The notes: generated by a model not told the origin, from the letters alone. A DNA stretch of 64,000 nucleotides from an uncultured Acidobacteriota bacterium (GCA_963738945.1 CAVTYD010000003.1:130583-194582), one strand, 5' to 3'. Shown: positions 4,602 through 46,747, numbered from the stretch's first letter. Numbers and translations are program-made.

Positions 4602-4607
4602 GCCGGT

Positions 4608-16709: not shown

Positions 16710-17469
16710 ATGCGCCCACGCCTCATGAGGCACCTCGGTGTTCTGCCTGCTCGGGTCGTTCGCGTGCTTCGCTTCGGCGAGGGCCCAGGATCCGCGACAA
16801 CCCCCTCCGGAGCCTCCGTCGCCGACTCGGTCACCCGGGGACTTCGGACCCCAGGAGACGGAATCGACGATCTCCGCCCTCGCCTTCTATCCGGGCTCGA
16901 GCGGCGACCCGTACAGCACGTCCGGCAGCCTCGGCCGGTTCGGAGCCGTGAACCTGGACGAGCACTTCTATGCCTCGGTGGAGCTTCCCCTCGGGGCGGT
17001 CATCGACTACATCGCTCTCAACAACGTCAACGACAACACCCCGAACGTCATCACGCTCACGCTCCGATACCGGAACGAGAACGCCGCACTGGCGACGATC
17101 GCGACGGTCGGAAACACGCCTCACGAGACTTGGCAAACCGACTTCAGCGCCGGCACGCTCGGTTACGTCTACTATCTGCACTTTCCCCTGATCCTGGACG
17201 TCGAGATCGCGTCCAGTCCCAACCTGCAGTTCTTCGGCAACGCACGGGTCGGCTGGCACCGCTCCGTGAGCCCGCCTCCGGGGGACGCCCACTTCGGTGA
17301 CGTGCCGACGACGCACCCGTTCTTCCAGTTCATCTCGGCCCTGTACTACTCGGGGATCACCTCGGGCTGCCAGGCGAGCCCGCCGCTGTATTGCCCCGAC
17401 AGCCCCGTGACCCGCGGCCAGATGGCGGTCTTCCTGGCGAAGGCCCTCGGCCTGAGCTGGCCCAACTAG
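16710..17469 (+). CDS. secreted protein, sixth member of the variable-N-domain + SLH-like C-terminal module family (frame-disrupted near codon 9 as read)
   Basis: ORF 16738..17469 ends FGDVPTTHPFFQFISALYYSGITSGCQASPPLYCPDSPVTRGQMAVFLAKALGLSWPN. GGAGG (16699-703) plus ATG 16710 encode MRPRLMRHLG in a different frame from the rest of the signal peptide (VFCLLGSFACFASARAQ). This implies a 1-nt indel near 16737. Confidence 0.75.
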
Positions 17470-17493
17470 AGGGAAGGTCGCCGGGGCGGTCCG

Positions 17494-24672: not shown

Positions 24673-24687
24673 GGTCTTGCCAGCCTC

Positions 24688-25209: not shown

Positions 25210-25291
25210 GTTCTCCGCTTTCCCTGACGTTGAGTTAAAGAACGGGCGGCCCGGCCGGGCCGCCCGCCTCGCGTCATCGCGTTTGCCTCAA

Positions 25292-26989: not shown

Positions 26990-27018
26990 TTCATGTCCCT
27001 CCTTGTTGACTGTCATTC

Positions 27019-28677
27019 TCAGTCGCCCGCGGCCTTGACGTTGACCTTCGACGGGTCGACCAGCGGCACCGGATTCTCCGGGTGCTGGAGGTTCGGGATC
27101 AGGTCGTTCGAGGCGCCGCCGGGGAACCGCTTGATGCTCGGGTACTTCACGATGGACTGGTCGAACTCGATGATCACCGGGTAGATCAGCGACAGGACCC
27201 ATCCGTTGTCCATGCCGGCCCACTGCCCCGGCGAGGACTTCGGCAGCCGCGACGCCATGGCGCCGTTGAAGACCATGTCGTACTTCTCGAAGGGGTCCAT
27301 CGTCAAGCAGTAGAGCGAGCCGATCGAGCCGAGATCCTGGTTCGGGCCCAACCATGTGTCCTTGGCGGTATAGAGGTACTTCCACGCGATGTGGACGTCG
27401 TCGTTGTTGGGGTCACCGCCGATGTCGTACCGCGCGCCCTGGAAGTTCTCGCCGTCGATGTAGATCCAGGAGTTGCGCGCGGAATGCTTCGCCTTGCCCA
27501 TGACGTAGGCGCTGTTGTCGATCGAGTCGAAGTAGATCGGCTTGCCGTCGTTGCCCTTCCACTCGCCGTGCGGCGGCGGGGTGACGCCGACCATCGACGA
27601 CAGCGTCGACCAGAGGTCGATGTGGGACATCATCTCGTCGTACTGAGCGCCCTGCGGGACGTGGTTCGGCCACCACATGATGCCCGGGACGCGCCAGCCG
27701 GCCTCGAAGGCGGAGCCCTTCTCCCCGCGGAACGGGTGCGTGCCGGCGTCGGGATACGCGTCCTGCCACGCGCCGTTGTCGGCGGTGAAGACCACGATCG
27801 TGTTGGGCGCCACCTGCCGGATCGCCTCCATGATCCGCCCGACGTTGTCGTCCATCTCCATGACGGAATCCGAGTACCGTCCCAAATGCGACTTGCCGGC
27901 GAACTTGGGCGACGGATTGTTCGGGTTGTGCATCTTCATGAAGTTGACGTCCATGAAGAAGGGCTTGCTGTCGTTGGCGTGCTGCTTGATGTACTCGATG
28001 GCCGAGTCCGCCTGGCGCACGTCGAACGTGGCGAGGTAGTCCCAGGTGATCTCCGCCACCTTGCGCGCGGGCTTCCCGGCTTCGCCCTCCCACTCGAACA
28101 TGTTGACGGCGCCGAAGTAGTCCTTCGCGAATACCGGGTTGTAGGACGGGAACCAGGGGTGGAACCACTCGTTCGTGTCGCTGTACGTGTAGACGCCGGG
28201 GTAATAGGCGCCGAACTCCCGCATCGTCTGGTAACCGTGCTCGATCGGGTAGGCCTCCGGCTTGTCGCCGAGGTGCCACTTGCCCGAGAAATACGTCGAG
28301 TAGCCATGATCGCGGAACCACTCCGCGATCGTCGGCGTCTCCTTGCGCAGGGAGTTCTCGTCGCCCGGGGCGACGACGATCGACAGCGCCGAGCGGATCG
28401 GGATGCGCCCCGTGTTGAACGACGCGCGGCCGGCCGTGCAGCTCGCCTGCCCGTACCAGCTCGTGAACGTCGCCCCTTCCTTGGCGAGGCGATCCAGGTT
28501 GGGCGTCGGGTGGCCGAGGGCCCTTCCGCCGCCCGAATACGCTCCGAGATCGTTCCAGCCCGTGTCATCGCTCATGAGAACGAGGACGTTGGGCTTCTTC
28601 GTCTGCGCCTGGACCGATGCCGTGAGGAAGGTTCCGACAACGATGCCGAACAAGAATCTGCGGGGCCATCTGGCCAT
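27019..28677 (-). CDS. sulfatase (arylsulfatase-type, family S1)
   Basis: ORF 27019..28914, with the start at ATG 28677 (AAGGAG SD) and a signal peptide. VLMSDDTGWN, QASCTAGRASFNTG, GKWHLGD. Confidence 0.92.
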   Translation of the reverse strand: MARWPRRFLFGIVVGTFLTASVQAQTKKPNVLVLMSDDTGWNDLGAYSGGGRALGHPTPNLDRLAKEGATFTSWYGQASCTAGRASFNTGRIPIRSALSIVVAPGDENSLRKETPTIAEWFRDHGYSTYFSGKWHLGDKPEAYPIEHGYQTMREFGAYYPGVYTYSDTNEWFHPWFPSYNPVFAKDYFGAVNMFEWEGEAGKPARKVAEITWDYLATFDVRQADSAIEYIKQHANDSKPFFMDVNFMKMHNPNNPSPKFAGKSHLGRYSDSVMEMDDNVGRIMEAIRQVAPNTIVVFTADNGAWQDAYPDAGTHPFRGEKGSAFEAGWRVPGIMWWPNHVPQGAQYDEMMSHIDLWSTLSSMVGVTPPPHGEWKGNDGKPIYFDSIDNSAYVMGKAKHSARNSWIYIDGENFQGARYDIGGDPNNDDVHIAWKYLYTAKDTWLGPNQDLGSIGSLYCLTMDPFEKYDMVFNGAMASRLPKSSPGQWAGMDNGWVLSLIYPVIIEFDQSIVKYPSIKRFPGGASNDLIPNLQHPENPVPLVDPSKVNVKAAGD

Positions 28678-28732
28678 GGTCACCACTCCTTTTCCAACGT
28701 CGACTAAAAAACGAAACGCAGAACTACGAAAC

Positions 28733-29965
28733 TCAGAAGTGCAATTTGATGTCCGCCGAACCCCCGAGCGCCTCGCGATCGGGGTTTTTGTAGTTGAAGC
28801 CTCCGGTCGGACCCCACACGACCGCGAGATCGACCGACACGACCGGAACGCCGATTCCCAGGCCGAAGGTGTACGCCCACGACGGATTGGCCGCCGCGAA
28901 GTCGCGCATCGCACCGGCGCGGATGGCGACGAACGGGATCCGCGCCTCGGCGCCGAGCGAGAGCTGCTGGCTCTTCGTGCCCGGCTCGAGCTCGAGCCCC
29001 CGTGTGTCCGGGACGAGCGTGTCGCTCTTGATGAAGTCGCCGTCGGCCGCGAGCGTCAGGAACGGCAGCGGGTCGACCGAGACGCCGCCCCGAAACTGGC
29101 GGGGCAGCGGCACCGTTCCGGGGCTTCCCGTGACCTGCGCGACCGTGAACTCCGGCTGGTTGAGCGCCACGCCGACGACGCCAACCTTGACGATGCCGAG
29201 ATTCGCGCGCGCCCCGACGTCGAAGGTCAGCTTGTTCGTCGTGCGGGCGTTCTCTTCGAAGGCGTCGTGGAGCAGCTCGGAGAGGTCCTTGCCCGCGCAG
29301 GACGTGGTTCCGAAGACACCGCAAGACCCGAAATACGTCACTCCCGACACGTACCGCAGCGCTCCCCCGACCTCGAGGACGCCGTCCAGGAACTTCGCGC
29401 CGTAGGCCAGCCGCGCCTCCCGCGCCGACAGGCCCACGAGGTAGAGGCCGGTCTGGTTGAAGGCGAGACCGTTGTCCGGGCCGCCGCCCGGGACGACGTG
29501 CTGGAGGTCGATCACCGGGTAGATGCCGGCGTTCGGCACGTCGCCGACCGAGAAGGCGAAGCCGTTCCACGACGCCACGAGGCCGACGACGCCGGACGAG
29601 ATGACGCTCGTGCCAGGCCGCGCGAGGTTCGCGATGTTGGCGAGCGCGACCGGGATCAAGTCCGGACGATCGCCGTTGACGATCTCGTCGAACGGCAGAT
29701 TGCTCAGGTTGACGAGGCTTCCGACGAGGTTGTTGCGATTCTGGGCCGTCATCCCCGCGAGGAGCTGGATGTCGAAGCCCTTCAGGTCGGCGAGGGCCGC
29801 GGGATTGGCGTAGATCGCGGAGTTGTCGTCCACGGCCGCGACCTCCGCGCCGCCCATTCCGGTCGCCCGGGCTCCGGCCCATGGGAACTGGGCCCGCGCC
29901 CGCGAGGCGAGGGCGACGAAAAGGACCGTGGCACACGAGAGGACTCGACGCAGGGTCTGATCCAT
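28733..29965 (-). CDS. outer-membrane beta-barrel protein (FadL/TraF/PorV-like N-terminal motif)
   Basis: 410 aa. AAGGAG SD and signal peptide. GARATGMGGAEVAAVDDNSAIYANPAALA motif. Alternating beta pattern. C-terminal ...DIKLHF with terminal Phe. Confidence 0.8.
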   Translation of the reverse strand: MDQTLRRVLSCATVLFVALASRARAQFPWAGARATGMGGAEVAAVDDNSAIYANPAALADLKGFDIQLLAGMTAQNRNNLVGSLVNLSNLPFDEIVNGDRPDLIPVALANIANLARPGTSVISSGVVGLVASWNGFAFSVGDVPNAGIYPVIDLQHVVPGGGPDNGLAFNQTGLYLVGLSAREARLAYGAKFLDGVLEVGGALRYVSGVTYFGSCGVFGTTSCAGKDLSELLHDAFEENARTTNKLTFDVGARANLGIVKVGVVGVALNQPEFTVAQVTGSPGTVPLPRQFRGGVSVDPLPFLTLAADGDFIKSDTLVPDTRGLELEPGTKSQQLSLGAEARIPFVAIRAGAMRDFAAANPSWAYTFGLGIGVPVVSVDLAVVWGPTGGFNYKNPDREALGGSADIKLHF

Positions 29966-29989
29966 GGACGGTGGTCTCCTTCCGGGCTC

Positions 29990-30379
29990 CTAGGGCTCTG
30001 GCTCTCGTCCTCCACGCTCCAGGGCTTCGCCGACGGCCCTCACGAGGAGTCGCCCCTCGAAGGGCTTCGCCAGAAAAGCGATGGCGCCGAGCTCGTCGGC
30101 CTCCCGCCGGAACAGGGCCGAGTCGTGAGCCGTGATGAAAATGACCGGTCCGGCCTGGCCATCCTCCCTCAACCGGCGCTGCAAGTCGATCCCCGAGGCG
30201 CCCGGCAGGTGAATGTCGGCGATCAGGCAGCCGAGGTTGCCGGGCGCGCTTTCCAGAAACGCCTCGGCCGAGCCGTACGTGCGGGCGTCGTACCCGGCCG
30301 TCTTTAGCATTCGCCCCAGCGCCTCGCGCATCCCTACGTCGTCCTCCACGATCGCAATCGTCGCCTGCGGGCCCGCCAT
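29990..30379 (-). CDS. single-domain response regulator (CheY-like receiver)
   Basis: ORF 29990..30613, with the start at ATG 30379. IAIVEDDVGMREAL...CLIADIHLPGASGIDL...VIFITAH...AFLAKPF. Confidence 0.85.
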   Translation of the reverse strand: MAGPQATIAIVEDDVGMREALGRMLKTAGYDARTYGSAEAFLESAPGNLGCLIADIHLPGASGIDLQRRLREDGQAGPVIFITAHDSALFRREADELGAIAFLAKPFEGRLLVRAVGEALERGGREPEP

Positions 30380-30476
30380 GAACGGTACGAAGCATCCCGT
30401 TCCGGGATGCCGCGGGATAAGCCGGCTCTTCGGGAGGGGGACGTTGCCCTTTGGTGCAATGGCCCCGAGAAGTTCC

Positions 30477-31121
30477 TCAGAAACCCGGGCGGCGTTCACC
30501 CGAAGCCTGCCGGCGGCGAAGCAGGCCGTCGACATGGACGAGCTCGGCGATGGAGCCGACGCCCATCTTCTCCATGATCTGGGCCCGGTGCGCCTTGACG
30601 GTGCGCTCGGCAATGCCGAGCTCGGCGGCGATCTGCTTGTTGAGACGGCCCACGACCACTCGCTCGAAGACTTCGCGCTCCCGGGCGGTCAGGCTCTCGA
30701 AACGCCGCGCGGCTTCCCGACGGCGTCCCGCGCCGCCCCCTTCGGCGCTCTGCCTCGCGAGCGCCGCCTCGATCGCCGCCAGCAGCTCCCTGCGTTGAAC
30801 CGGCTTCGTCAGAAAATCGACGGCGCCCCGGCGCATCGCGTGCACGCTCTGCCGGATGTCGCCGTGCCCGGTCAGGAAGACGACGGGAAGGGCGTCGCCG
30901 CGTTTCGCGATCGACTCCTGGAGCTCCAGGCCGCTCGGACCCGGCATCCGCACGTCGAGCAGCACGCAGCCGGGCCCCTCCGCCGGCGGATCCAGGAGGA
31001 AATCGCCGGCCGAGCGGTACGGCTTCGTCGCATAGCCCGCGGCCTTCAACAGCCGCGACACAGCGGTTCGGAACGAGTCGTCGTCGTCGACGACGTGGAT
31101 GACGGCCGTGCCGGCGGTCAT
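30477..31121 (-). CDS. NarL/FixJ-family response regulator (REC + LuxR-type HTH)
   Basis: Last 214 codons of ORF 30477..31451, from ATG 31121. VIHVVDDDDSFRTAV...VLLDVRMPGPSGLEL...FLTGHGD...DFLTKP, then LTAREREVFERVVVGRLNKQIAAELGIAERTVKAHR. As read there is no stop between the kinase and this gene (see findings). Confidence 0.85.
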   Translation of the reverse strand: MTAGTAVIHVVDDDDSFRTAVSRLLKAAGYATKPYRSAGDFLLDPPAEGPGCVLLDVRMPGPSGLELQESIAKRGDALPVVFLTGHGDIRQSVHAMRRGAVDFLTKPVQRRELLAAIEAALARQSAEGGGAGRRREAARRFESLTAREREVFERVVVGRLNKQIAAELGIAERTVKAHRAQIMEKMGVGSIAELVHVDGLLRRRQASGERRPGF

Positions 31122-33045
31122 GCCGTCGTCCTTTCCGGATCGGCCGGAGCGGGGCCGGGTCCGTCCGGCACCCACGTAGGGAAGCGTGAACTCGAACGCC
31201 GCGCCTCCTCCCGGCTCGTTCGCGGCGTCGATCCGTCCGCCGTGCGCCTCCACGATCGAGCGGCAGATCGAGAGTCCGAGCCCGACGCCGTAGGCCTTGG
31301 TCGTGAAGAAGGACTGGAAGAGGCGGTTGCCCTCGGACGGTCCGATCCCGTGGCCCGAGTCCGACACGCGGACGGAGACGCGGTCGCGGGCGACGCGCGT
31401 GCGCATCACGAGGCGCCGCCGGTCTTCCGGCACGCCGGCCATCGCCTCCATGCCGTTGAACGTCAGGTTGATGACGACCTGCTGCAGGGCGACCTCGTCG
31501 CCCCGCGCCGCCGGCAGGCCGCGCCCGAGGTCGCGCTCGATCGACGACGCCGTGCCGGCGGGCCTCGTGCCGGAGCATCCGCGCGACCGACTCGACGACC
31601 GCGTTGAGGTCGAGCGGCTTCATCTCCATCTCGCGTTTGCCGGCGAGCCGCCGCACGCGCTGAACCACCTCGCTCGCCCTCCGGTCGTCGCGCCGGATGT
31701 CGCCGAGAATCTGGCGCACCTCCTCGAACTCTCCGTTTCTCGACGCGAGCAGCATCTCGGCGGTCTCGGCGTTGGCGAGGATCGCGCCGAGGGGCTGATT
31801 GATCTCGTGAGAGATCGAGGCCGCGAGCTCCCCCACCGTCGCCAGGCGCGCCGCCTGCGCGAGCTCCTCCTGGCGCCGCCGGTTCTCCTCCTGCGCGCGC
31901 CTCCGCTGCCGGCGCTCGACGAGCAATGCGATCAGGAGGGCCGTCTCGGCGGCCACGGCGGCGGCCCCGCCGAGGATCCGGTACCGGTAGGTCGACCAGA
32001 ACGACGGCGGGCGATACCGGATCTCGTACGAAGACGGCACGGCGCGGACAGGGATCCCGAAGCGCTTCAGCGCCCGCGCGTCCACAGCGAGAACGCGCGG
32101 GGAGCGCGGGACGAGCGCGATCGCGCCGGGAGCCTCGCCCCGCAGCACGCGCAACGCGATCTCACCGGCCGCGTGACCCTCGTGGGCCGAATCGAACAGG
32201 GCGCCCCCGGCGATTCCGCTCCCGAGGTACGTGGCGTGGACGGCGAAGACCGGCACGGAGGCCGCCGCGGCGAGGGCGCGCGCCGCATCGAGAGGAACGA
32301 CCGACCGGCCCGCCGAGTCCCGAAACATCATCGTGTAGACGAGGATGGTGTCGGCGGGCAGTCGGCCGAACTCCTTCGGGAAATTGGCGATCGGGACGCC
32401 GGTGCGAGCGATCACATCCAGCCTGATGCCGAGCTTCTTCACGTCGCGACGCACGCTCTCCACAGACCCGATGTCGAGGGGTCCGGAGCCCGCGACGACC
32501 ACGATCCGGCGCGCCCCGGGAACGAGGCGCTGGGCCAGCTGGAGGGTCTCGGTCATGTCGTCGTCGCTGAAGAGGCCCGTGACCCAGTCGGGCCGGACGT
32601 GGTGCGCGAAGTACGACGGTTCGACGGCGGTGAACACCACGGCCGCATGCGGCCAGAGGCGGTCCCTGTGCGTCGCCAGAAAATCTAGGGCGAGTTCCGT
32701 GAAGGCGAAGACGAGCTCCGGCTCCCTCTCCGCGTACTTGCGTTCGAGAAACGCGGCGAACGCGTCTCCGTAGCCCTCGCTCCGGAAGCGGAACGCGTCC
32801 AGGCCCTCCGAGTGGACCTCGAAGGGCCCGGCATCCGACTCGGAAAGCACCCGCCGGATCTCGGCGTCGGCCGCCTGGCTCGCGGGGAGCATGACCTCGG
32901 TGCCGGTCAGGATCACGATGCGGCGGGCGGGCGGCGGCGAGTCGGCGGCGGCCGCGGTCGAAGCGGCGACCAGCACGAGAAGCGTGGTCGAGAGAAGGCG
33001 GCGCACGGTGTCGTTTCCCGATCGGCCCGGGCGCCAATCTATCAC
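31122..33045 (-). CDS. sensor histidine kinase with periplasmic ABC-substrate-binding-like domain (frame-disrupted near 31541 as read)
   Basis: The frame of ORF 30496..33045 gives a signal/TM, a roughly 300-aa periplasmic domain (RRIVILTGTE...RRIVVVAGSGP...), a TM (ILGGAAAVAAETALLIALLV) and the H-box ELAASISHEINQPLGAI. After ...EARRHGVV the sense continues in the frame of ORF 30477..31451 (IERDLGRGLPAARGDEVALQQVVINLTFNGMEAM...DSGHGI...GVGLGLSI). Confidence 0.8.
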
Positions 33046-33121
33046 CGGAGCCGCGATGGACGAAGACGGAGCGGCAGGAAAGTGCGGGCGCCCGACGCCG
33101 GGCGCCCGCCTCGCCGCAAAC

Positions 33122-34741
<1,620 letters not shown>

Positions 34742-40008: not shown

Positions 40009-40734
40009 CTACGGGTAATAAAGGCCGAGCGCCTTCGCGAGGAACACCGCCATCTGTTTTCGGGTCACGACCGTGTCCGGACAGAAATTTCCGCTCCCGC
40101 ATCCGGCCGTGACGCCCGATGCCGCCAGCGCCTCGATGTAGGAAAACGCGGGATCGGTCGCCGGAACGTCCGCGAACGTCGGCGACGCCGGCGCCGGGCT
40201 GACCTGGAGCTTGTAGCCCACGACGGCGCCGGAAAACGACGTCGTGCTGTCTCCGTTCGGGCCGAAGGCCGCTTCGAGGATCAGCCGGTGGTCGTCGTCG
40301 TTCGTGTAGCCAAGCCCGCTCAGGTCGGCGAAGGCGGACGTGCAGCCCTGGTTGGCGGCCCCGGTGATCTGCGTCAGCAGCGTGAGATCGGCGTTGGTTG
40401 CCGACGCGCCGTAGAGCAGGAGAAGGATCGAGCTTCCGCCGTCCGGCTGCGAATTGCAGAAGTCGAACTCGAGGTTCTGGAGCAGGGCTCCGGGCGGCAG
40501 CGACGCCGACGCGAAGAAGAAGGAGAACGGAGTGAGCGCATAGCGGCGAGCCGGGTTTCCGAAGTCGGAATAGGAGACGGACGACGACGACGGCGAGAAC
40601 TGCCACTCCGGCACCGTGGAGTAGGTCGTGTTCGTCGTTCCCCACGTTTGTGGAGCAGCCGGCGATCCGGCGAGCGCGCGACCCGCGACCGCGAGCGCCA
40701 GGACGATCGACGCCGGGATTTTCCGGGATCTCAT
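40009..40734 (-). CDS. secreted protein, variable N-domain + SLH-like C-terminal module (array member 4)
   Basis: Last 241 codons of ORF 40009..41460. ATG 40734 with GAGGAGG SD. Signal peptide MRSRKIPASIVLALAVAGRALAG. Ends FADVPATDPAFSYIEALAASGVTAGCGSGNFCPDTVVTRKQMAVFLAKALGLYYP. Confidence 0.8.
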   Translation of the reverse strand: MRSRKIPASIVLALAVAGRALAGSPAAPQTWGTTNTTYSTVPEWQFSPSSSSVSYSDFGNPARRYALTPFSFFFASASLPPGALLQNLEFDFCNSQPDGGSSILLLLYGASATNADLTLLTQITGAANQGCTSAFADLSGLGYTNDDDHRLILEAAFGPNGDSTTSFSGAVVGYKLQVSPAPASPTFADVPATDPAFSYIEALAASGVTAGCGSGNFCPDTVVTRKQMAVFLAKALGLYYP

Positions 40735-40748
40735 TTCACACCTCCTCG

Positions 40749-42116
40749 TCAGTAGTAGGAGAGGCCGAGCGCCTTCGCGAGGAAGACGGCCATCTGGCGG
40801 CGCGTGACGGCGTTCGCCGGGCAGAAGTTGCCGCCGCCGCAGCCGCCGGTGATCCCGGAGGCCGCCAGCGCTTCGACGTAGGCGAAGGCGGGATCGGACG
40901 ACGGCACGTCGGCGAACGTCGGCGTGGCCGGAGGCGGGCTCACCTGCAGGTGATAGGTGAACGTGGCGCCCAGGATTCGGGTCTGGAAGTCGCCGTAAGG
41001 CGCTCCGAAGAGCACGTACGCGACGAGCTTGGTGTCGCCGACGGTGTAATTGAGACCCGTCGCGGTGACCGCCCAGCACCCGGCCTGCTCCGAGGGGAGG
41101 TCGGTGATCGGGGCGCCCAACGGAGAATCGATCACGACGAGGTTCATGGGCGAGCCGTTCGTCGACCGAGTGTCGCAGGAGTCGAATTCCACCTGGTCGA
41201 GCACCGCGCCCGGCGGCAGGCCGACGGCGGTAATGAGAGCCGGCGAATGATCCGCGGAGATCAGGTATCGAGCGAGCTGAGGCGGACCGGTGTCCGCATA
41301 CTGGGCCGTGTCGTCGGGCGGCAGAAACTGCCACTCCGGAACATGGACGCTCGTCGCCACCGTTCCGAACCGGTAAGCCAGCCCCAACACCTTGGATAGA
41401 AAGACCGCCATCTGACGGCGTGTGACGGCCTGGTCGGGGCAGTAGAGCCCGCCGCCGCAACCCGCGGTGACGCCCGACGCCGCCAGGGCCTCGATGTACC
41501 GGTACGCCGGATCAGTGAGTGGCACGTCGCTGAACGTCGGTGTCAAGGGGGCCCGGCTCACTTGAAGCCGGTATGTCACCCCCACGTTGCCCACCCCGAC
41601 GATTGCATCGACGGGGGGGTCCGGCCCGAAGATCGTCCACAGGAGCAGGCGATGGGACGGCGCGTCCACGGTGTAATTCAGACCGCTCAGATCGACCGAC
41701 TGCGAAGTGCATTGGTCGTTGGCGTGCGCGGTTATCGAGGCGAGAACGCCGAGGAAGTTTCCCGCCGCGTCGGTATCTTCCAGAATGACCAGGAAATCGT
41801 CGCCGCCCGGCGGATTGCCGTTGCAGTAGGCGACGCTCATGCCCTCGAGGAGCGCACCCCGCGGAAGCACCGGTGTCGCGTAGAAAGCGCCGTAAGGCGA
41901 AGTCGAAGTTAGGAGAAAGTTTCCTTGAATGCCTCGATGATCGTACTGGGTGGTCGAGTCAATCGGCGCGAAGTCGTAGGCGGAGATGGGGTACGTCGAG
42001 TCGTTCGTCGTTCCGAACTTGGGCGCCATTTCGGGCGCTCTCGGCTCAGCTGCGATGCACCGCCCGCCGAGAAACGCGAGAGCGAGACCGAACGAGAGGC
42101 AAATCCGCGTCTTCAT
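40749..42116 (-). CDS. secreted protein with two complete (N-domain + SLH-like) modules in one ORF (array member 3)
   Basis: ORF 40749..42146, with the start at ATG 42116 (signal MKTRICLSFGLALAFLGG). Module 1 ends ...FSDVPLTDPAYRYIEALAASGVTAGCGGGLYCPDQAVTRRQMAVFLSKVLGLAY. It runs directly into module 2 (RFGTVATSVHVPEWQF...FADVPSSDPAFAYVEALAASGITGGCGGGNFCPANAVTRRQMAVFLAKALGLSYY). Confidence 0.8.
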   Translation of the reverse strand: MKTRICLSFGLALAFLGGRCIAAEPRAPEMAPKFGTTNDSTYPISAYDFAPIDSTTQYDHRGIQGNFLLTSTSPYGAFYATPVLPRGALLEGMSVAYCNGNPPGGDDFLVILEDTDAAGNFLGVLASITAHANDQCTSQSVDLSGLNYTVDAPSHRLLLWTIFGPDPPVDAIVGVGNVGVTYRLQVSRAPLTPTFSDVPLTDPAYRYIEALAASGVTAGCGGGLYCPDQAVTRRQMAVFLSKVLGLAYRFGTVATSVHVPEWQFLPPDDTAQYADTGPPQLARYLISADHSPALITAVGLPPGAVLDQVEFDSCDTRSTNGSPMNLVVIDSPLGAPITDLPSEQAGCWAVTATGLNYTVGDTKLVAYVLFGAPYGDFQTRILGATFTYHLQVSPPPATPTFADVPSSDPAFAYVEALAASGITGGCGGGNFCPANAVTRRQMAVFLAKALGLSYY

Positions 42117-42136
42117 GACTCCCTTCCCTGCGGCCC

Positions 42137-42889
42137 TCACGGCCACTGCAGCCCGAGCGCCTTGGCGAGAAACACCGCCATCTGCCGCCGCGTCAGCGTC
42201 GCGTCCGGGCAGTAGTTGCCGTTGCCGCAGCCGGCCGTGATGCCCGACGCGACGAGCGCCTCGATGTACTGGAAGCCCGGGTCGGTCGTCGGCACGTCGT
42301 TGAACGTCGCCGCCGGGGGCGCCGGGCTGACCTCCAGCCGGTAGAACAGGTTGACCCCGGCCAGGGCCTGGGTCCCGTTGACCGCGTCGATCTCGGCAAT
42401 GAGAACGAGCTGGTTGTCGTAGTAGTTGACCTGGTAGTCGAGTGACGTCAGATCCGCGATCTCGAACTCACCGCAGCCGTTCGACGAAGCGCTGTAGACA
42501 CCGGTCCCCATCTCCGTCATGTTGGTCCCGTCGTACCAGGACTTGTAGAGATGAACGCCGAGCTGGTCGTTCGGGTTGGGGTCGGTGTTGCAGAAATACG
42601 CCTCGATCCCCGTCAGCAGCGCTCCATTGGGAAGCCGCGGCACGGCCGCGAAACATTGCCCGATGCAGTTCCCCGGAGATCTCGCCAGGGTGTTGGGAAA
42701 GAGGTAGTCGGCATAGCTCGTCGCAGAGTCCCGCGGCGCAAACTCCGTGACCGGGACGTGGTAGATCGAGTCCTGGCTGATTCCATACGTCTTCGCCCGG
42801 AGCTGAGGCAGCCCGTCCTCCGCGGCACCGGCGGTCGTCAAGGCGAGCGCCGCCGCGAAAAAGGCTCCGATCCCGATTCTTCGCTTCAT
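42137..42889 (-). CDS. secreted protein, variable N-domain + SLH-like C-terminal module (array member 2)
   Basis: Last 250 codons of ORF 42137..43297. ATG 42889 with GGAGGG SD. Signal MKRRIGIGAFFAAALALTTAGA. Ends FNDVPTTDPGFQYIEALVASGITAGCGNGNYCPDATLTRRQMAVFLAKALGLQWP. Confidence 0.8.
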   Translation of the reverse strand: MKRRIGIGAFFAAALALTTAGAAEDGLPQLRAKTYGISQDSIYHVPVTEFAPRDSATSYADYLFPNTLARSPGNCIGQCFAAVPRLPNGALLTGIEAYFCNTDPNPNDQLGVHLYKSWYDGTNMTEMGTGVYSASSNGCGEFEIADLTSLDYQVNYYDNQLVLIAEIDAVNGTQALAGVNLFYRLEVSPAPPAATFNDVPTTDPGFQYIEALVASGITAGCGNGNYCPDATLTRRQMAVFLAKALGLQWP

Positions 42890-42912
42890 GGTCACCCTCC
42901 GTTGCGAACGCC

Positions 42913-43665
42913 TCATGGCCACTGCAGCCCGAGCGCCTTCGCGAGAAACACCGCCATCTGCCGCCGCGTCAGCGTCGCGTCCGGACAGTAGTTGCCGTTC
43001 CCGCAGCCGGCCGTGATGCCCGAGGCCACGAGCGCTTCGATGTACTGGAATCCGGGGTCCGTCGTCGGCACGTCGTTGAAGTCGGCGAACAGCGGCGACG
43101 GACTGACCTGCAGCGTGTATCCGAGAACGACACCGGCGAAGCGCGTGCTGGACGTTCCCGATGTGGTCTCGACCGCGACCGTGAGCTGATTGCGGTAGTT
43201 GTCGACCTGGAAGCCGCCGGCGGGAGGCAGGCTGAATGCCGCGAACCCGCACGGGAGCGTGCCGTTGCTGCCCGACCCGATCGCGCCACTGCTGCACCCG
43301 CTGCCGAGGTTGTCGCAGAAGAAGAACGTGGCCACGACGTCGTTCACCGCGTCCTCGTCGCAGGAGTCGAGCTCGTAGTACGTGACGAGCGCGCCGGACG
43401 GCAAATGAGGAGACGCGACGAAGATTGCCGGGCCGCCCGAGGAGTAACGCTGGAAGACGCCGAAGTTCGAGTAGCCGGAATCGGTGTAGACGGCGCCGTG
43501 CGCCGTGTCGAGCGGCGTGAACTCGGAGGCGGCGATCCGATAGTAGCTGAGCTGGTTCACGCCGTAGGTCTTCGGGGCGAGCGAGGCCTTCGCCGGCGCC
43601 TGCGCGAGCAGGCGACCGCTCAGCAGGAGGAGGATCAAGCCGAGGCCGAGGCGCGACATTTTCAT
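42913..43665 (-). CDS. secreted protein, variable N-domain + SLH-like C-terminal module (array member 1)
   Basis: ORF 42913..43785, with the start at ATG 43665 (AGGAAG SD). Signal MKMSRLGLGLILLLLSGRLLAQA. The C-terminal 55 aa are identical to member 2. Same length (753 nt) as member 2. Confidence 0.8.
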   Translation of the reverse strand: MKMSRLGLGLILLLLSGRLLAQAPAKASLAPKTYGVNQLSYYRIAASEFTPLDTAHGAVYTDSGYSNFGVFQRYSSGGPAIFVASPHLPSGALVTYYELDSCDEDAVNDVVATFFFCDNLGSGCSSGAIGSGSNGTLPCGFAAFSLPPAGGFQVDNYRNQLTVAVETTSGTSSTRFAGVVLGYTLQVSPSPLFADFNDVPTTDPGFQYIEALVASGITAGCGNGNYCPDATLTRRQMAVFLAKALGLQWP

Positions 43666-43865
43666 GGATTCTTCCTTTCTCGGCCTCCCGACGGCCGCTG
43701 CGACCCGAGGGTTTTCGCGGGGCGAATTCCGAGCATCGAAAGAACTCTCGCGAGCGGATTCCGGCGTTCCACCCGCCTTCCGCAATTGCTGCAGTAGCTC
43801 TCGTTACCGGCGAGGGGACAGCCGCAACGGGAGCAGGCGGCCGTCGGGGAAGCGGCGTCGTTCAT
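43662..43865 (-). CDS. small zinc-ribbon protein candidate (67 aa)
   Basis: ORF track 43662..43865(-). CSRCGCPL-x8-YCSNCG is a two-CxxC zinc-ribbon pattern. Its stop TGA (43664-62) overlaps ATG 43665 of array member 1 (ATGA coupling). No clear SD and a basic low-complexity tail, so only moderate support. Confidence 0.4.
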   Translation of the reverse strand: MNDAASPTAACSRCGCPLAGNESYCSNCGRRVERRNPLARVLSMLGIRPAKTLGSQRPSGGRERKNP

Positions 43866-43925
43866 GGGGGACAGACTGCCCGTCCCGGCGCCGGGGGTCT
43901 TGAACCGTTCCGTGGTTTGTCCGTA

Positions 43926-43963: not shown

Positions 43964-46747
43964 TTGAGCCCCAGAGAGATCTACGAGTTCGGCCCGTTCC
44001 GGCTGGACGTCGCCGAGCACCGGCTCCTCGAGGGCGATCTCCGGATCGCTCTGAAGCCGAAGGTCTTCGAGACACTGGTCCTGCTCGTCCGAAATGCCGG
44101 GCACCTGCTCTCCAAGCAGGACCTGATGACGCAGTTGTGGCCGGATACCGTCGTCGACGAGACCAACCTCAACAAGAACGTCTGGCTGATCCGCCGCGCC
44201 CTCGGCGGAAGCGGCGACTCGGCGGAATACATCGAGACGGTGCCGCGGATCGGTTACCGGTTCGTCGCGAGCGTGCGCCGTGCCGAGCCGGATGGACCGC
44301 CGTCGGCGGAACCGGCCGCTCTCGCCGCAGGAGAACCGGCCACGTCCGCGCCGGCGACTCCCCTGCCGCCGCCCGTCCCTCGGAGGCGTTCGCGCACGCC
44401 GGCGATTGTCGCGGCGGCCGCGATCCTCCTCCTCGGCGCTTTCGGCGCGTGGGCGGCGTGGCGGTCCGCGCATGCGAGTGGCCGCTCCACCGACGGCGCC
44501 TCGCGTCCGACGATCTCCGTTCTCGGCTTCCGCAATCTCTCGAACCGTCCGGACCTCGACTGGATCGGCACCGCGCTCTCCGAGATGCTCCAGGCCGAGC
44601 TCGCGCCGGGATCGACGTACCGCCTGATGCCCGTCGAGTCCGCGGACCGACTTCGCCGCGACCTCGCGCTCGAGCAGACCGGCAGCCTGTCGCGCGAGTC
44701 GCTCGCCCGCCTGCGGCGGGCAGCCGCCGTGGACGAGGTCGTCGGCGGCTCCTACGTGTCCGCCGGGTCCGGATCGGCCGACGCCCGAATCCGGATCGAC
44801 GTGCTGGTCCAGGACGCGCGGACGGGCGAGACCGTCGGATCCGTGACGGAGACCGGCGAGGCTTCGAGCCTGCTCGACATGGTCGCCTCGCTCGGCTCCC
44901 GCCTGCGCCTCGCGCTTCGAGAGCCCGACCGCGCCTCGGCGGCCGCCGGAGCGCGGGAGACGCTCCCCCGCGACGCAACGGCTCTGCGGCTCTACGCCGA
45001 AGGACTTCGAAAGCTGCGCGACTCCGACGCGCTCGCTGCCCGCGATCTCCTTCTCGAGTCCGTCGCGGCGGAGCCCGACTTTCCGCTCGCCCACGCGGCG
45101 CTCGGCCGGGTCTATTCGACTCTCGGCTATGAGGAGAAGGCGCGTCTCGAGCTGCAGCAGGCGTTCGAGCGATCGCACGGCCTGCCGCGAAAGGAACAGC
45201 TGGAGGTCGAATCCTCCTATCGCGCGGCTAGCAAGGAATGGGACAAGGCCATCGCGCTCTGCCAGGAGCTCGACCGGCTCTCGCCCGACGACCTCGAGAA
45301 CGGGCTACGCTTCGCCGCGCTGGCGATCAACGCCTCGCGCCGACAGGACGCGCTCGCGGTCCTGAAGAGGCTCGAGCGCCTTCCGCCCCCGACCGGCAAC
45401 GATCCGCGGATCGACCTGCTCGAATCTCGCGCGTTGCTCGGAACCGACCCGAAGGCGGCGCTCGCGGCGGCCGAGCGAGGGCTGGCGGAGAGCCGGGCGC
45501 GCCGCGTGCGCTCGGTCGAGGCCAACGCCCTCCTCGACCGGGCCGTCGCCGCCCAGACGCTCGGTCTCCCCGACAAGGCCTCCGTCGAGGAGGGGATGCG
45601 GATCTTCGCCGAGATCGGCGACTCCGGCGGCGAGGCGCGCGCGGCTCACATCCTCGGAAACGTTCAGTTCGACGAAGGCGATGCGGACGGGGCCCGTGCG
45701 TCCTTCCAGCGTGCCGTCGACCTTTCCGAGCGCATCGGCTACGTGCTCGAGAAGGCGGCTGCCGTCGCGAGCCTCTCGAGGGTCGCGTCGCTGCGAGGCG
45801 AAGCCGCCGAGGCCGAGCGCCTGATCGTCGAGGCGAATTCCATCTGGCGCGCCGTGCCCGATCTCCGGCAGCTGCCGTGGGGACTGAACGCCCTCGGCTC
45901 GATCCGGCTCGGCCAGGGAAGGCTCCGCGAGGCCGAGGCCCTTCACCGGGAGGCGCTCGAGATGGGCCGGGAACGCGGCGACGCCGGCAGCTACCGCCAC
46001 GAGGGATACAGCGGGCTCGTCGCCGCGCTCGCCGCGCAAGGGCGGCTCGACGAGGCCTCCCGAGTCGCCGACGAGGCGCTCGCCGCCAGCCGAAAGATGG
46101 CCGATCCGAGCTGGGTCGCGCAGCACGAGGCCGAGATCGGCATGCTGGCATTCGAACGTGGCCGGTTCGACGAGGCGGACCGCCACTTCGCCGAGGCGCT
46201 CGCGCTCCGAAAGCAGAAGGAGGAGTACACGGTACCCGAGAGCGAGCTCCTGATCGCGCACCTGCGCCTCGAAGAGCGCCGGTGGGAGGACGCGCGCACG
46301 CTGGCCGGGAGAGCATCGCGCGAGTTCGCCGCCGCTGGCCGCAAGGCCGATCAGGCCGATGCCGACGCGGTGACCGCCGAGGCGCTTCTGTCTTCCGGGC
46401 GCAAGGAGGAGGCAAAGAAGACGATCGAAACCGCCGCCGGGCTTCTCGACGACAAGGCCTCCCCCGACGCGCGCATTCCCATCCTTCTCGCGGCCGCCCG
46501 CGTCGAGAGCGTCCTCGGACGCCCGGATGCCGCCCGCTCGGAGGTCGAGACGGCGACACGACTGGCGGAGAAGATCGCATGGAAGAACCTCGTCCTCGAG
46601 GCGCGGCTCGCGGCCACGGAGGTCGAGGCCGGATCGGGCGACGCCAGAGCGAGCGTCGAGTCGGCGGCCGTCGCCGCGGACGCACGGCTTCTCGGTTTCG
46701 AGCGGATCGCCGTTCGCGCGGATCGGCTGACGAACCGCAAGTCGTGA
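43964..46747 (+). CDS. membrane-bound transcriptional regulator: OmpR/PhoB-type winged-helix DNA-binding domain + TM + large TPR region (ToxR/CadC-like topology)
   Basis: Intact 927-aa ORF with TTG start. wHTH: YEFGPFRLDVAEHRLL...LKPKVFETLVLLVRNAGHLLSKQDLMTQLWPD...NLNKNVWLIRRAL...IETVPRIGYRFV. TM: TPAIVAAAAILLLGAFGAWAAW. Then ISVLGFRNLSNRPDLDWIGTALSEML and many TPR-like helices. Confidence 0.88.
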   Translation: MSPREIYEFGPFRLDVAEHRLLEGDLRIALKPKVFETLVLLVRNAGHLLSKQDLMTQLWPDTVVDETNLNKNVWLIRRALGGSGDSAEYIETVPRIGYRFVASVRRAEPDGPPSAEPAALAAGEPATSAPATPLPPPVPRRRSRTPAIVAAAAILLLGAFGAWAAWRSAHASGRSTDGASRPTISVLGFRNLSNRPDLDWIGTALSEMLQAELAPGSTYRLMPVESADRLRRDLALEQTGSLSRESLARLRRAAAVDEVVGGSYVSAGSGSADARIRIDVLVQDARTGETVGSVTETGEASSLLDMVASLGSRLRLALREPDRASAAAGARETLPRDATALRLYAEGLRKLRDSDALAARDLLLESVAAEPDFPLAHAALGRVYSTLGYEEKARLELQQAFERSHGLPRKEQLEVESSYRAASKEWDKAIALCQELDRLSPDDLENGLRFAALAINASRRQDALAVLKRLERLPPPTGNDPRIDLLESRALLGTDPKAALAAAERGLAESRARRVRSVEANALLDRAVAAQTLGLPDKASVEEGMRIFAEIGDSGGEARAAHILGNVQFDEGDADGARASFQRAVDLSERIGYVLEKAAAVASLSRVASLRGEAAEAERLIVEANSIWRAVPDLRQLPWGLNALGSIRLGQGRLREAEALHREALEMGRERGDAGSYRHEGYSGLVAALAAQGRLDEASRVADEALAASRKMADPSWVAQHEAEIGMLAFERGRFDEADRHFAEALALRKQKEEYTVPESELLIAHLRLEERRWEDARTLAGRASREFAAAGRKADQADADAVTAEALLSSGRKEEAKKTIETAAGLLDDKASPDARIPILLAAARVESVLGRPDAARSEVETATRLAEKIAWKNLVLEARLAATEVEAGSGDARASVESAAVAADARLLGFERIAVRADRLTNRKS

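What the first reader, a model, noticed from the sequence alone, without database searches (positions are those of the whole stretch)
40009..43865. Tandem array of secreted paralogs: diversified N-terminal domain on a near-invariant, Cys-bearing SLH-like C-terminal module
Four co-directional minus-strand genes (42913..43665, 42137..42889, 40749..42116, 40009..40734) are separated by only 14-23 nt. Each has its own SD and a signal peptide. All five modules end with Y-x-L-Q/E-V-S-x-x-P...F-x-D-V-P-x-x-D-P-x-F/Y-x-Y-I/V-E-A-L-x-A-S-G-I/V-T-x-G-C-G-x-G-x-F/Y-C-P-x-x-x-V/L-T-R-x-Q-M-A-V-F-L-x-K-x-L-G-L. This has the spacing and key residues of an S-layer-homology repeat (F-x-D-V, G-I/V-x-x-G, T-R-x-E/Q-x-A-x-x-L-x-K/R-A-L). 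It also carries a G-C-G-x-G-x-x-C-P insert (possible disulfide) that classic SLH repeats lack. The roughly 170-aa N-terminal parts share only a skeleton: T-Y/W-G near the start, E/Y-F-x-P, L-P-x-G-A-L/V-L followed about 10 residues later by a Cys, a second Cys before D-L-S/T-G/S-L-x-Y. Otherwise they look highly divergent by eye. I do not recognise this N-domain as any named family. A constant anchor with variable heads, multiple copies in one operon and a dedicated membrane regulator next door resembles surface-display, adhesin or variable-receptor families. This is my best candidate for an undescribed system.
Basis: partly seen in the sequence, partly recalled or inferred. Interest (0 to 1): 0.8.

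Follow-up and report, generated by a model that had tools for sequence, protein, structure and literature searches.

The report
Cell-wall-anchored proteins with swappable heads
This is an operon of four secreted proteins from a Thermoanaerobaculia (Acidobacteriota) bacterium, each joining a variable, sugar-binding-like beta-sandwich head that no domain database names to one copy of the known SLH cell-wall anchor, so it extends a known design rather than being a new system.

Summary
Four minus-strand genes encode five modules, each a roughly 150-aa N-domain plus one C-terminal repeat.

- **Anchor.** All five C-terminal repeats pass Pfam SLH. The "GCGxGxxCP insert" is not an insert: two invariant Cys replace ordinary SLH positions.
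- **Head.** The N-domain has no Pfam, NCBIfam or PDB sequence match. AlphaFold models it confidently as a beta-jelly-roll, and Foldseek places it nearest CBM6, CBM36 and CBM86 modules.
- **Family.** It has about 900 clusters at 50% identity. Nearly all are head plus one SLH, with several copies per genome in Thermoanaerobaculia MAGs.
- **Ligand link.** In two related species the largest arrays sit beside a CsaB-like pyruvyl transferase.
- **Head exchange.** Against a relative 91-99% identical over 11 kb, a 1.2-kb segment of gene C is only 59-77% identical.
- **Regulator.** A ToxR-like regulator and an overlooked zinc-ribbon ORF accompany one orthologous locus, not the family.

Best reading: wall-glycan-anchored, probably trimeric, lectin-like envelope proteins with exchangeable heads. 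This is a new variant of a known kind.

The parts
42913..43665 (-). Gene A: signal peptide, jelly-roll head (43105-43572) and one SLH repeat (42916-43104). 250 aa.
   Evidence: (SLH 35 bits, gathering score 20.8).
42137..42889 (-). Gene B: signal peptide, head (42329-42793) and one SLH repeat (42140-42328). 250 aa. Its last 55 aa are identical to those of A.
   Evidence: the last 168 nt are 94% identical to A, with no amino-acid differences.
40749..42116 (-). Gene C: a fusion of two modules. Head 1 is 41559-42020, SLH 1 is 41373-41558, head 2 is 40941-41372 and SLH 2 is 40752-40940. 455 aa.
   Evidence: two SLH stretches, 71.5 bits; AlphaFold model with two beta-sandwiches.
40009..40734 (-). 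Gene D: signal peptide, head (40201-40650) and one SLH repeat (40012-40200). 241 aa.
   Evidence: AlphaFold pLDDT is 92-98 across the head (10-residue block means). Foldseek hits to CBM6, CBM86 and CBM36.
40927..42100 (-). Replaced segment covering head 1, SLH 1 and head 2 of gene C. It is only 59-77% identical to the closest relative, against a 91-99% background.
   Evidence: The breakpoints lie at the 5' end of gene C and at the start of its second SLH block.
43662..43865 (-). Small conserved ORF of 67 aa with a zinc ribbon (C-x2-C-x12-C-x2-C). Its stop codon overlaps the ATG of gene A. In six related loci it is followed by a transmembrane helix, which looks lost in this window.
   Evidence: Zn_Ribbon_1 at 19.5-23.6 bits, below the cut-off of 25. 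Variation falls at third codon positions across 8 loci.
43896..43921 (+). A 26-nt block, GGTCTTGAACCGTTCCGTGGTTTGTC, nearly invariant across 8 loci and lying 42 nt upstream of the regulator's start codon. It may be the regulator's promoter or an operator.
   Evidence: The consensus promoter scan found nothing, so the function is inferred only.
43964..46747 (+). Divergently transcribed ToxR/CadC-like one-component regulator: N-terminal winged-helix Trans_reg_C domain, a hydrophobic stretch that looks like a membrane span, then a long TPR region. 927 aa.
   Evidence: Trans_reg_C 53 bits, TPR_MalT 58.6 bits. (adjacency is conserved in the orthologous locus, in L003, and in four metagenome contigs).
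16738..17469 (+). Sixth, divergent family member elsewhere in the window. It has a head without the Cys pair, plus one SLH repeat with a Cys loop two residues longer. 243 aa.
   Evidence: (matches both the head and the SLH profiles), and (SLH 24.5 bits).

Best explanation
The array encodes small Sec-exported envelope proteins built from two parts.

**Anchor.** The C-terminal SLH repeat binds a pyruvylated, peptidoglycan-linked glycan. A working SLH unit is a three-repeat spindle, and each head here carries only one repeat. So the proteins most likely work as trimers. These could be homotrimers, or C (two modules) plus D (one module).

**Head.** The N-terminal beta-jelly-roll is a lectin-like or CBM-like head displayed from the cell wall. 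The two invariant Cys pairs, one in the head and one in the SLH hairpin, probably form disulfides outside the cytoplasm.

**Diversity.** Head diversity comes from duplication and from homologous recombination that uses the conserved SLH-coding 3' blocks as crossover sites.

**Control.** In this particular locus, expression is probably controlled by the divergent ToxR-like membrane regulator together with the small zinc-ribbon protein.

**Shown.**
- SLH membership, with the GIIxG and TRAE ligand motifs kept.
- The jelly-roll fold, as a confident prediction.
- The size and architecture of the family.
- The link to CsaB in related genomes.
- The head replacement.

**Inferred.**
- Trimerisation.
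- Glycan binding by the head.
- Disulfides.
- Location in the envelope (surface or periplasm).
- The regulatory link.
For: - **SLH membership.** All five repeats pass Pfam SLH. G-[IV]-T-x-G and T-R-[RK]-Q are invariant across 91 homologues. They correspond to the GIIxG and TRAE/TRAQ motifs whose Gly and Arg contact pyruvyl-ManNAc in SpaA (PMC6081394).
- **The Cys variant behaves as a normal SLH elsewhere.** The same Cys-bearing repeat occurs as tandem pairs and canonical triplets, about 63 aa apart, in other proteins. Most sit behind PKD, TIG, cadherin, beta-helix or peptidase domains.
- **CsaB linkage.** CsaB-like genes lie immediately upstream of, and divergent from, the two largest single-SLH arrays, in L043 and L052. 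They score 130 bits on PF04230 and 207 and 212 bits on TIGR03609, whose cut-off is 213. Sources also annotate CsaB in Thermoanaerobaculia MAGs.
- **Head fold.** AlphaFold pLDDT is 92-98 (10-residue block means) across the head. Foldseek gives E = 6e-6 to 3e-4 and target-normalised TM of about 0.6 against CBM6, CBM86, CBM36 and CBM15.
- **Trimer logic.** The single-SLH proteins SlpA and OmpM form trimers so that three chains build one SLH unit (PMC9388160; bioRxiv 10.1101/2023.08.14.552755). All ten SLH-less multi-head relatives among the top 150 have exactly three heads in one chain. Gene C is a natural two-module fusion.
- **Recombination.** Gene C heads are 63% and 52% identical to the relative in L001. 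Gene A's head is 99% identical there, and D's is 93%. The flanks are 91-99% identical at the DNA level. The ranking reverses against L007: C is 82% versus 67%, and D is 78% versus 93%. The SLH-coding ends of A and B are 94% identical to each other. That is more than B's end shares with its own orthologue, at 87-90%.
Against: - No csaB could be shown in this window's own genome. The two CsaB-like proteins fall just under the curated equivalog cut-off.
- The Trp that stacks on the sugar in SpaA aligns with a Pro here, with an aromatic residue two positions later. The ligand may therefore differ.
- Trimerisation is untested. No multimer prediction was possible, and the SLH parts of the gene C model have low confidence (pLDDT 35-58).
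- The fold match to CBMs is generic: 7-13% identity and rmsd above 4 A. No binding-site residues were checked.
- Acidobacteriota have two membranes, and these proteins carry no signal for crossing the outer one. 'Display' may therefore mean periplasmic.
Confidence: 0.6

Rival explanations
1. These are periplasmic peptidoglycan-associated proteins. They act as spacers, as outer-membrane-to-wall tethers, or as adaptors for wall remodelling. The SLH end sits on the wall polymer and the head contacts outer-membrane or wall components. Nothing is exposed on the cell surface.
For: - The proteins have only a Sec signal peptide, are small, and carry no beta-barrel or other outer-membrane export signal.
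- In the two-membrane bacteria studied so far, the SLH domains of SlpA and OmpM are periplasmic.
- The window also encodes OmpA-family, TonB_C and TraF_2 proteins.
- Neighbouring genes include pgeF, ftsEX, a YkuD transpeptidase and an M15 peptidase.
Against: - Extreme head diversity, many copies per genome and allele replacement against a near-identical background are more typical of exposed proteins.
- The same SLH variant carries large adhesin-like PKD, cadherin and beta-helix proteins, which look extracellular.
Confidence: 0.25
2. These are subunits of a true S-layer lattice. Alternative paralogues would allow the coat to be varied, as with Campylobacter fetus Sap or the Clostridioides difficile SlpA cassettes.
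For: - Several tandem paralogues share a conserved anchor and differ in the rest.
- The csaB-next-to-array layout resembles csaAB-sap-eag in B. anthracis (the B. anthracis layout is from my own knowledge).
- Cassette-like replacement was seen.
Against: - The heads are only about 150 aa, with no predicted lattice-forming domains.
- All genes lie in one operon with their own ribosome-binding sites, so there is no sign of expressing one at a time.
- No invertible promoter or recombinase was seen near the array.
- No S-layer is reported for this class: one literature search found a single, unrelated paper.
Confidence: 0.08
3. The regulator, the zinc-ribbon protein and the array form a dedicated sensory system. 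The heads are variable receptors that signal through the membrane regulator.
For: - The regulator, the zinc-ribbon ORF and the array stay adjacent in six syntenic genomes.
- They also stay together in L003, in a different neighbourhood, and in four metagenome contigs.
- Unrelated Trans_reg_C regulators sit next to family members in L022, L024 and L078.
Against: - At least 60 of 78 loci have no regulator.
- Most of the co-occurrence is one vertically inherited locus.
- In this window the zinc-ribbon protein appears to have lost its membrane helix.
- Simple transcriptional control of an operon explains the adjacency equally well.
Confidence: 0.07

Closest known systems
SLH-anchored surface proteins of Firmicutes (B. 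anthracis Sap and EA1, P. alvei SpaA and SlhA, C. thermocellum SLH proteins) with CsaB-pyruvylated wall polymer
   Same: - The same Pfam domain.
- The same GIIxG and TR-x-E/Q ligand motifs.
- A variable functional part joined to a conserved anchor.
- A csaB-like gene beside arrays in related genomes.
   Different: - One SLH repeat per head instead of three per chain.
- The anchor is C-terminal.
- An invariant Cys pair in the SLH hairpin.
- Pro at the position of the sugar-stacking Trp.
- The host is a two-membrane Acidobacteriota lineage.
Single-SLH trimeric connectors SlpA (Deinococcus, Thermus) and OmpM (Negativicutes)
   Same: - One SLH repeat per chain. In those proteins three chains build one SLH unit.
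- They are among the PDB sequence hits of the C-module.
   Different: - Those proteins have an N-terminal SLH, a coiled-coil stalk and an outer-membrane beta-barrel.
- Here the SLH is C-terminal and follows a soluble jelly-roll, with no stalk and no barrel.
- Trimerisation is not shown here.
CBM6, CBM35, CBM36 and CBM86-type carbohydrate-binding modules (galactose-binding-domain-like jelly-rolls)
   Same: - A predicted fold of about 150 aa forming a beta-sandwich.
- These are the best Foldseek hits in the PDB.
- Similar modules at phage tail-fibre tips are hit in the viral library.
   Different: - No sequence-level relationship: no Pfam or PDB profile match, and 7-13% identity.
- The conserved L-P-x-G-A motif and Cys pair are specific to this family.
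- Sugar binding is untested.
Cassette variation of surface proteins (C. fetus sap homologues, C. difficile slpA cassette)
   Same: - A conserved anchor-coding block with variable remainders in tandem paralogues.
- An allele replaced against a near-identical genomic background.
   Different: - No sign of single-promoter switching.
- The comparison to these systems rests on my own knowledge, not on a test run here.

Membership tests
SLH domain (Pfam PF00395) | Sequence matches the family profile above the curated threshold | tested here: met
   Genes A, B and D (one repeat each) score 35-35.5 bits and gene C (two repeats) 71.5 bits, against a gathering score of 20.8. Four of the five repeats match all 44 profile positions without gaps (A matches 2-44). 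The profile built from 91 homologues hits SbsB, Sap, OmpM and SlpA in the PDB.
SLH domain (Pfam PF00395) | GIIxG motif, including the conserved second Gly (SLH-Gly29), which is needed for ligand binding | tested here: met
   G-[IV]-T-x-G is present in all five modules. G207 and G211 are invariant in 91 homologues. The motif's role is taken from PMC6081394.
SLH domain (Pfam PF00395) | TRAE motif, with the Arg (SLH-Arg43) that binds the pyruvate | tested here: met
   The motif is T-R-R-Q or T-R-K-Q in all modules. T224 and R225 are invariant. SpaA repeat 3 has the same TRAQ variant.
SLH domain (Pfam PF00395) | Conserved Trp (SLH-Trp13) that stacks on the ManNAc ring | tested here: not met
   In the gapless alignment to Sap, the Trp aligns with the Pro of the D-P motif. 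An aromatic residue (F or Y) lies two positions downstream.
SLH domain (Pfam PF00395) | Three repeats forming one three-pronged unit, either in one chain or from three chains | not testable with these tools
   Each head carries one repeat. No multimer prediction was available. Indirect support comes from the triplet use of the same variant elsewhere and from three-head single-chain relatives.
SLH / CsaB wall-anchoring system | A CsaB pyruvyl transferase encoded in the same genome | tested here: inconclusive
   None was found in the 64-kb window. CsaB-like genes lie next to the largest arrays in two related species (L043, L052). They score 207 and 212 bits on TIGR03609, just under the cut-off of 213. 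None of the 120 listed CsaB homologues lies on a contig of the size of the window's contig or of its closest relative's.
CBM6-like carbohydrate-binding modules | Sequence membership in a CAZy or Pfam CBM family | tested here: not met
   There are no Pfam or NCBIfam hits to the head even at E <= 1, and no PDB profile hits.
CBM6-like carbohydrate-binding modules | Beta-jelly-roll fold | tested here: met
   The AlphaFold head has pLDDT 92-98 in 10-residue block means. Foldseek top hits are 1gmm, 7zvo, 6sgf and 2cdo, with target-normalised TM of about 0.6.
CBM6-like carbohydrate-binding modules | Carbohydrate binding through conserved aromatic or Ca2+ sites | not testable with these tools
   Model coordinates could not be read, and there is no binding assay.
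ToxR/CadC-like membrane one-component regulators (for the neighbouring gene) | N-terminal OmpR-type winged helix, one membrane span, and an outward-facing sensor domain | tested here: met
   Trans_reg_C covers residues 27-100 and the TPR region covers about 420-870. A hydrophobic stretch near residue 160 is visible in the sequence. Topology is inferred.
Known anti-phage defence systems (PADLOC) | A match to any defence-system protein model | tested here: not met
   None of the four array proteins or the zinc-ribbon ORF matches. The regulator gives only a generic TPR hit.

The most novel reading that the evidence does not exclude
The family may be a recombination-driven variable coat. Small trimeric lectin-like heads would be plugged into a pyruvylated wall glycan through single, disulfide-stapled SLH repeats. 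The conserved SLH-coding blocks would act as portable crossover sites. These sites would let lineages of Thermoanaerobaculia swap, duplicate, fuse and delete heads, for example to escape phages or to change what the cell sticks to. That would make SLH/CsaB anchoring a major organiser of the cell surface in a Gracilicutes phylum where it has not been studied.
Probability: 0.2. Interest if true: 0.65.

Novelty: new variant of a known kind. Interest (0 to 1): 0.42.

Why it matters
SLH/CsaB anchoring is understood mainly from Firmicutes and from the outer-membrane connectors of Terrabacteria. This family suggests the same principle is used heavily in Thermoanaerobaculia, a barely cultured class of Acidobacteriota, and in an unusual one-repeat-per-head format. 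It adds a sizeable unnamed domain family of about 900 clusters at 50% identity. That family could be given a database entry and tested for glycan binding. The head swapping offers a tractable case of surface-protein diversification in soil and sediment bacteria. The Cys-pair SLH variant, found in at least 6,700 proteins, is a simple structural question that nobody appears to have examined.

Tried and rejected
- **Insert claim.** Rejected, on the gapless profile and Sap alignments.
- **Named family for the head.** Pfam and NCBIfam at E <= 1, and a PDB profile search, returned only the SLH part.
- **Defence system.** There are no PADLOC matches.
- **RNA elements.** There are no Rfam or tRNA hits anywhere in the window.
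- **Promoter and terminator scan.** No promoter-like site was found, and terminator-like sites are at the chance level.
- **Model of gene C.** This was meant to show how two SLH repeats pack. The SLH parts had pLDDT 35-58 and no coordinates or PAE were available, so it is uninformative. Its Foldseek search only repeated the tandem-CBM theme at TM of about 0.2.
- **Viral structure library.** It gave only generic tail-fibre CBM-like tips.
- **Context of a three-head relative (L083).** Nothing informative was found.
- **Clustering of neighbouring genes.** The apparent 22-locus partner is an artefact of TPR-containing Ser/Thr kinases joining the regulator's cluster.
- **Literature.** Searches for SLH, CsaB or S-layers in Acidobacteriota or Thermoanaerobaculia found nothing relevant.
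- **csaB in the window's own genome.** None of the 120 listed CsaB homologues lies on a contig of matching length.
- **Diversifying selection.** Domain-wide dN/dS is below 1 everywhere, at 0.2-0.8 in heads and 0.08-0.36 in anchors. Positive selection is therefore not shown. dS is saturated in many comparisons.

Full report
**1. What is in the sequence**

- A, 42913-43665, 250 aa
- B, 42137-42889, 250 aa
- C, 40749-42116, 455 aa
- D, 40009-40734, 241 aa

They are separated by 23, 20 and 14 nt. Each is preceded by a GGAGG-like or AGGAAG-like ribosome-binding site. Each starts with a Sec-type signal peptide, with no lipobox.

Gene C is a fusion of two modules, so there are five modules in all. 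When aligned, the roughly 150-aa N-parts are 24-38% identical and the roughly 63-aa C-parts are 67-92% identical. The last 55 residues of A and B are identical. The 168 nt that encode them are 94% identical and differ only at synonymous sites. The only repeated DNA in the interval is the 227-nt SLH-coding block, present five times.

Across 91 homologues, mean column entropy is 2.3 bits in the head and 0.8 bits in the anchor. The window has about 70% G+C. Its neighbours are housekeeping genes: ftsE, ftsX, gatB and pgeF on one side, and pcrA/uvrD, glmS and glmU on the other.

**2. The C-terminal module**

All five repeats pass the Pfam SLH model. A, B and D score 35-35.5 bits each and two-repeat C 71.5 bits, against a gathering score of 20.8. 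Four of the five repeats match all 44 profile positions without gaps (A matches 2-44). The alignment to the B. anthracis Sap SLH domain is also gapless. It is not an insert.

Both Cys are invariant in 91 homologues. So are the two Gly of G-I/V-T-x-G and the Thr-Arg of T-R-x-Q. These motifs match the GIIxG and TRAE/TRAQ motifs. In P. alvei SpaA, their Gly29 and Arg43 bind the pyruvate ketal of the wall polymer (PMC6081394).

One hallmark is missing. The Trp that stacks on the sugar aligns with a Pro here, with an aromatic residue two positions on.

The Cys-bearing variant is very common. A search with gene C returned at least 6,735 proteins. In non-family proteins the repeat often comes as tandem pairs or canonical triplets, about 63 aa apart. 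Most follow PKD, TIG, cadherin, beta-helix, thrombospondin-type or metallopeptidase domains. The source organisms include Thermoanaerobaculia, Vicinamibacteria, Anaerolineales and other Chloroflexota.

**3. The N-terminal domain**

The head matches no Pfam or NCBIfam model even at E <= 1. A profile of 91 homologues hits only SLH proteins in the PDB.

AlphaFold2, run with that alignment, gives a confident all-beta sandwich for gene D. Block-mean pLDDT is 92-98 over residues 41-170, and pTM is 0.73. Foldseek against the PDB places it among carbohydrate-binding jelly-rolls: CBM6, CBM86, CBM36, CBM11 and CBM15, along with Cry-toxin domain III and some small virus capsids. E-values run from 6e-6 to 3e-4, target-normalised TM is about 0.6, and identity is 7-13%. 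The viral library returns the CBM-like tips of phage tail fibres at similar scores. This is a resemblance in fold class, not family membership.

**4. The family**

A profile of the five heads was searched against 1.84 billion representatives. It found 908 clusters at E <= 1e-3 and 218 at E <= 1e-10. The architectures of the top 150 are as follows:

| Architecture | Count |
|---|---|
| Head plus one SLH | 116 |
| Head only (many truncated; one clear frameshift) | 18 |
| Three heads in one chain, no SLH | 10 |
| Gene C type (two modules) | 1 |
| Other mixed arrangements | 5 |

None of the seven three-head proteins scanned matches a Pfam family above threshold. One of the ten comes from a Xanthomonadales MAG.

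In species-representative genomes, 489 stretches encode relatives. The 78 best loci are almost all from Thermoanaerobaculia or Acidobacteriota MAGs. One is from a Gemmatimonadales MAG and one from a Planctomycetota MAG. Single MAGs contribute at least 7-9 genes spread over several loci. Members occur as singletons, as pairs, and as arrays of up to six to eight single-SLH genes. The window itself holds a sixth, divergent member at 16738-17469.

**5. Link to wall-glycan pyruvylation**

E. coli WcaK was used as a probe against every ORF of the fetched loci. It hit two genes, L052:6051-8207 and L043:219-5732. Both carry PF04230 at 130 bits. Their best NCBIfam match is the CsaB equivalog TIGR03609, at 207 and 212 bits. 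That is just under the 213-bit cut-off, and the match covers the whole model. In L043 the CsaB-like domain shares one long open frame with glycosyltransferase and methyltransferase domains. In L052 a separate glycosyltransferase ORF follows it.

Both genes lie immediately upstream of, and divergent from, the two largest single-SLH arrays in the data set. Homologues of these proteins are annotated by their sources as CsaB in Thermoanaerobaculia and other Acidobacteriota MAGs.

This is the classical genetic signature of SLH anchoring. It is shown for the lineage, not for this window's genome.

**6. Oligomeric state (inference)**

A working SLH unit is a three-fold spindle. Proteins with one repeat, such as SlpA and OmpM, achieve it by forming trimers (PMC9388160; bioRxiv 10.1101/2023.08.14.552755).

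Three observations point the same way here:
- Each head carries exactly one repeat.
- Every SLH-less multi-head relative has exactly three heads.
- Two adjacent modules have fused in gene C, next to single-module D.

I could not run a multimer prediction. The single-chain model of C has low confidence in its SLH parts.

**7. Head exchange**

Over 11 kb, the window and its closest relative (L001) are 87-100% identical in 150-nt windows, mostly 91-99%. The exception is window 40927-42100, where identity drops to 59-77%. That segment is head 1, SLH 1 and head 2 of gene C. The breakpoints sit at the gene's 5' end and at the start of its second SLH block.

Per-domain protein identities to L001 are as follows:

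| Domain | Identity to L001 |
|---|---|
| Head A | 99% |
| Head B | 92% |
| Head D | 93% |
| Head C1 | 63% |
| Head C2 | 52% |

The ranking reverses with a more distant genome, L007. Gene C is 82% identical to L007 but 67% to L001. Gene D is 78% identical to L007 but 93% to L001.

Other signs of turnover were seen:
- In L005 and L007, the best match to head A is only 32-35% identical. In L011, the best match to head D is 33% identical.
- Within the conserved chromosomal slot, the array has one gene in L031, two in L023, and four or five elsewhere.
- In L031 and L007 the upstream small ORF runs into leftover SLH 3' sequence (ALGLQWP; AGCGGGNYCPD). This points to deletions between SLH blocks.

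Domain-wide dN/dS stays below 1, so positive selection is not demonstrated.

**8. The regulator and an overlooked gene**

The divergent gene at 43964-46747 encodes a protein with a Trans_reg_C winged helix, a putative membrane span and a long TPR region. This is the ToxR/CadC layout.

Aligning the intergenic regions of eight loci revealed two conserved features. The first is a 26-nt block 42 nt upstream of the regulator's start codon. The second is a small ORF co-directional with the array, at window 43662-43865. It encodes a zinc ribbon, CxRCGCPLAGNESYCSNCGR, with variation at third codon positions. In six loci the ribbon is followed by a membrane helix. In this window and in L001 the helix appears lost, and the stop codon overlaps the ATG of gene A. 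Pfam Zn_Ribbon_1 scores fall just below threshold.

The block of regulator, zinc-ribbon ORF and array is syntenic in six genomes, in the order glmS, pcrA, regulator, zinc-ribbon ORF and array, followed where the contig extends that far by gatB and ftsEX. It recurs in a different neighbourhood in L003, and it appears on four metagenome contigs. Unrelated Trans_reg_C regulators sit beside family members in three more loci. Most loci have none. The regulator is therefore plausibly the controller of this operon, but it is not a defining part of the family.

**9. Verdict**

The insert is not real. The head belongs to a familiar fold class, although it is unnamed as a family. The regulator link is local to this locus.

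The best-supported picture is a large family, found almost only in Thermoanaerobaculia, of small, probably trimeric, lectin-like proteins. They hang on a pyruvylated wall glycan through single SLH repeats, and their heads are exchanged by recombination at the conserved anchor-coding blocks. Whether they face the periplasm or the outside is open.

This is a new variant of a known kind and of moderate interest.

Noticed in passing
window 16738-17469 (+): A sixth family member sits far from the array. Its head is divergent and lacks the Cys pair. Its single SLH repeat has a Cys loop two residues longer (GC-QASPPLY-CP). Its signal peptide looks short and has no charged start. It follows genes for a DUF4388 protein, an OmpA-family protein and an AI-2E transporter.
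   Followed up: partly
window 43662-43865 (-): A conserved 67-aa zinc-ribbon ORF lies between the regulator and gene A, and its stop codon overlaps A's ATG. Orthologues in six loci carry a membrane helix that seems lost here and in L001. It may be a ToxS-like partner of the regulator.
   Followed up: partly
window 43896-43921 (+): A 26-nt block, GGTCTTGAACCGTTCCGTGGTTTGTC, is nearly invariant across eight loci, just upstream of the regulator. It contains a GAAC-N-GTTC inverted repeat and a TTGAAC...TAGACT arrangement. The consensus promoter scan did not call it.
   Followed up: partly
L043 219-5732 (-) and L052 6051-8207 (-): CsaB-like pyruvyl transferase genes lie directly upstream of, and divergent from, the two largest single-SLH arrays. 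In L043 the CsaB-like domain is in one long open frame with GT1, GT2 and methyltransferase domains. In L052 a separate GT2/GT1 ORF (3085-5367) lies beyond it.
   Followed up: yes
L004 6875-18251, and about 9 further loci (L009, L013, L030, L041, L054, L071, L075, L077): This is a second recurrent context for a single family member. The order is UbiA prenyltransferase, GT2, FAD amine oxidase, then the head-SLH gene. In L004 four PMT_2 (GT-C) glycosyltransferases follow, some fused to NHL repeats. It looks like a polyprenyl-phosphate-sugar envelope glycosylation cluster.
   Followed up: partly
P0290, P0300, P0305, P0319, P0320, P0337, P0338, P0348, P0360, P0369: These are secreted proteins of 450-530 aa made of exactly three tandem copies of the head domain, with no SLH. 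The sequences inspected keep the L-P-x-G-A motif in each copy. One comes from a Xanthomonadales MAG, so the head domain also occurs outside Acidobacteriota.
   Followed up: partly
L031 9578-9826 and L007 6598-7089: In these loci the zinc-ribbon ORF reads into leftover SLH 3' sequence (ALGLQWP; AGCGGGNYCPD). This suggests past deletions by recombination between SLH-coding blocks.
   Followed up: no
window 23104-34741 (-): Four sulfatase genes (23104-24672, 25292-27385, 27019-28914, 33122-34741) lie in a stretch with lower G+C (62-67% against about 70%). A TraF_2-like outer-membrane protein and a two-component regulator are among them. This hints at use of sulfated polysaccharides.
   Followed up: no
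window 8521-11346 (-): A 941-aa protein has an unusual domain combination: response-regulator receiver, Ser/Thr protein kinase and a C-terminal TonB_C domain.
   Followed up: no
window 17357-19789 (-): An 810-aa protein combines multihaem cytochrome c motifs (c7, c554, paired CXXCH) with HEAT repeats. It lies directly downstream of, and convergent with, the sixth family member.
   Followed up: no
L085 13354-20711: A prophage-like stretch (Prim-Pol, AAA_25, large terminase) starts about 2.6 kb downstream of a three-gene head-SLH cluster. A YkuD transpeptidase and an M15 peptidase lie on the other side of the cluster.
   Followed up: no
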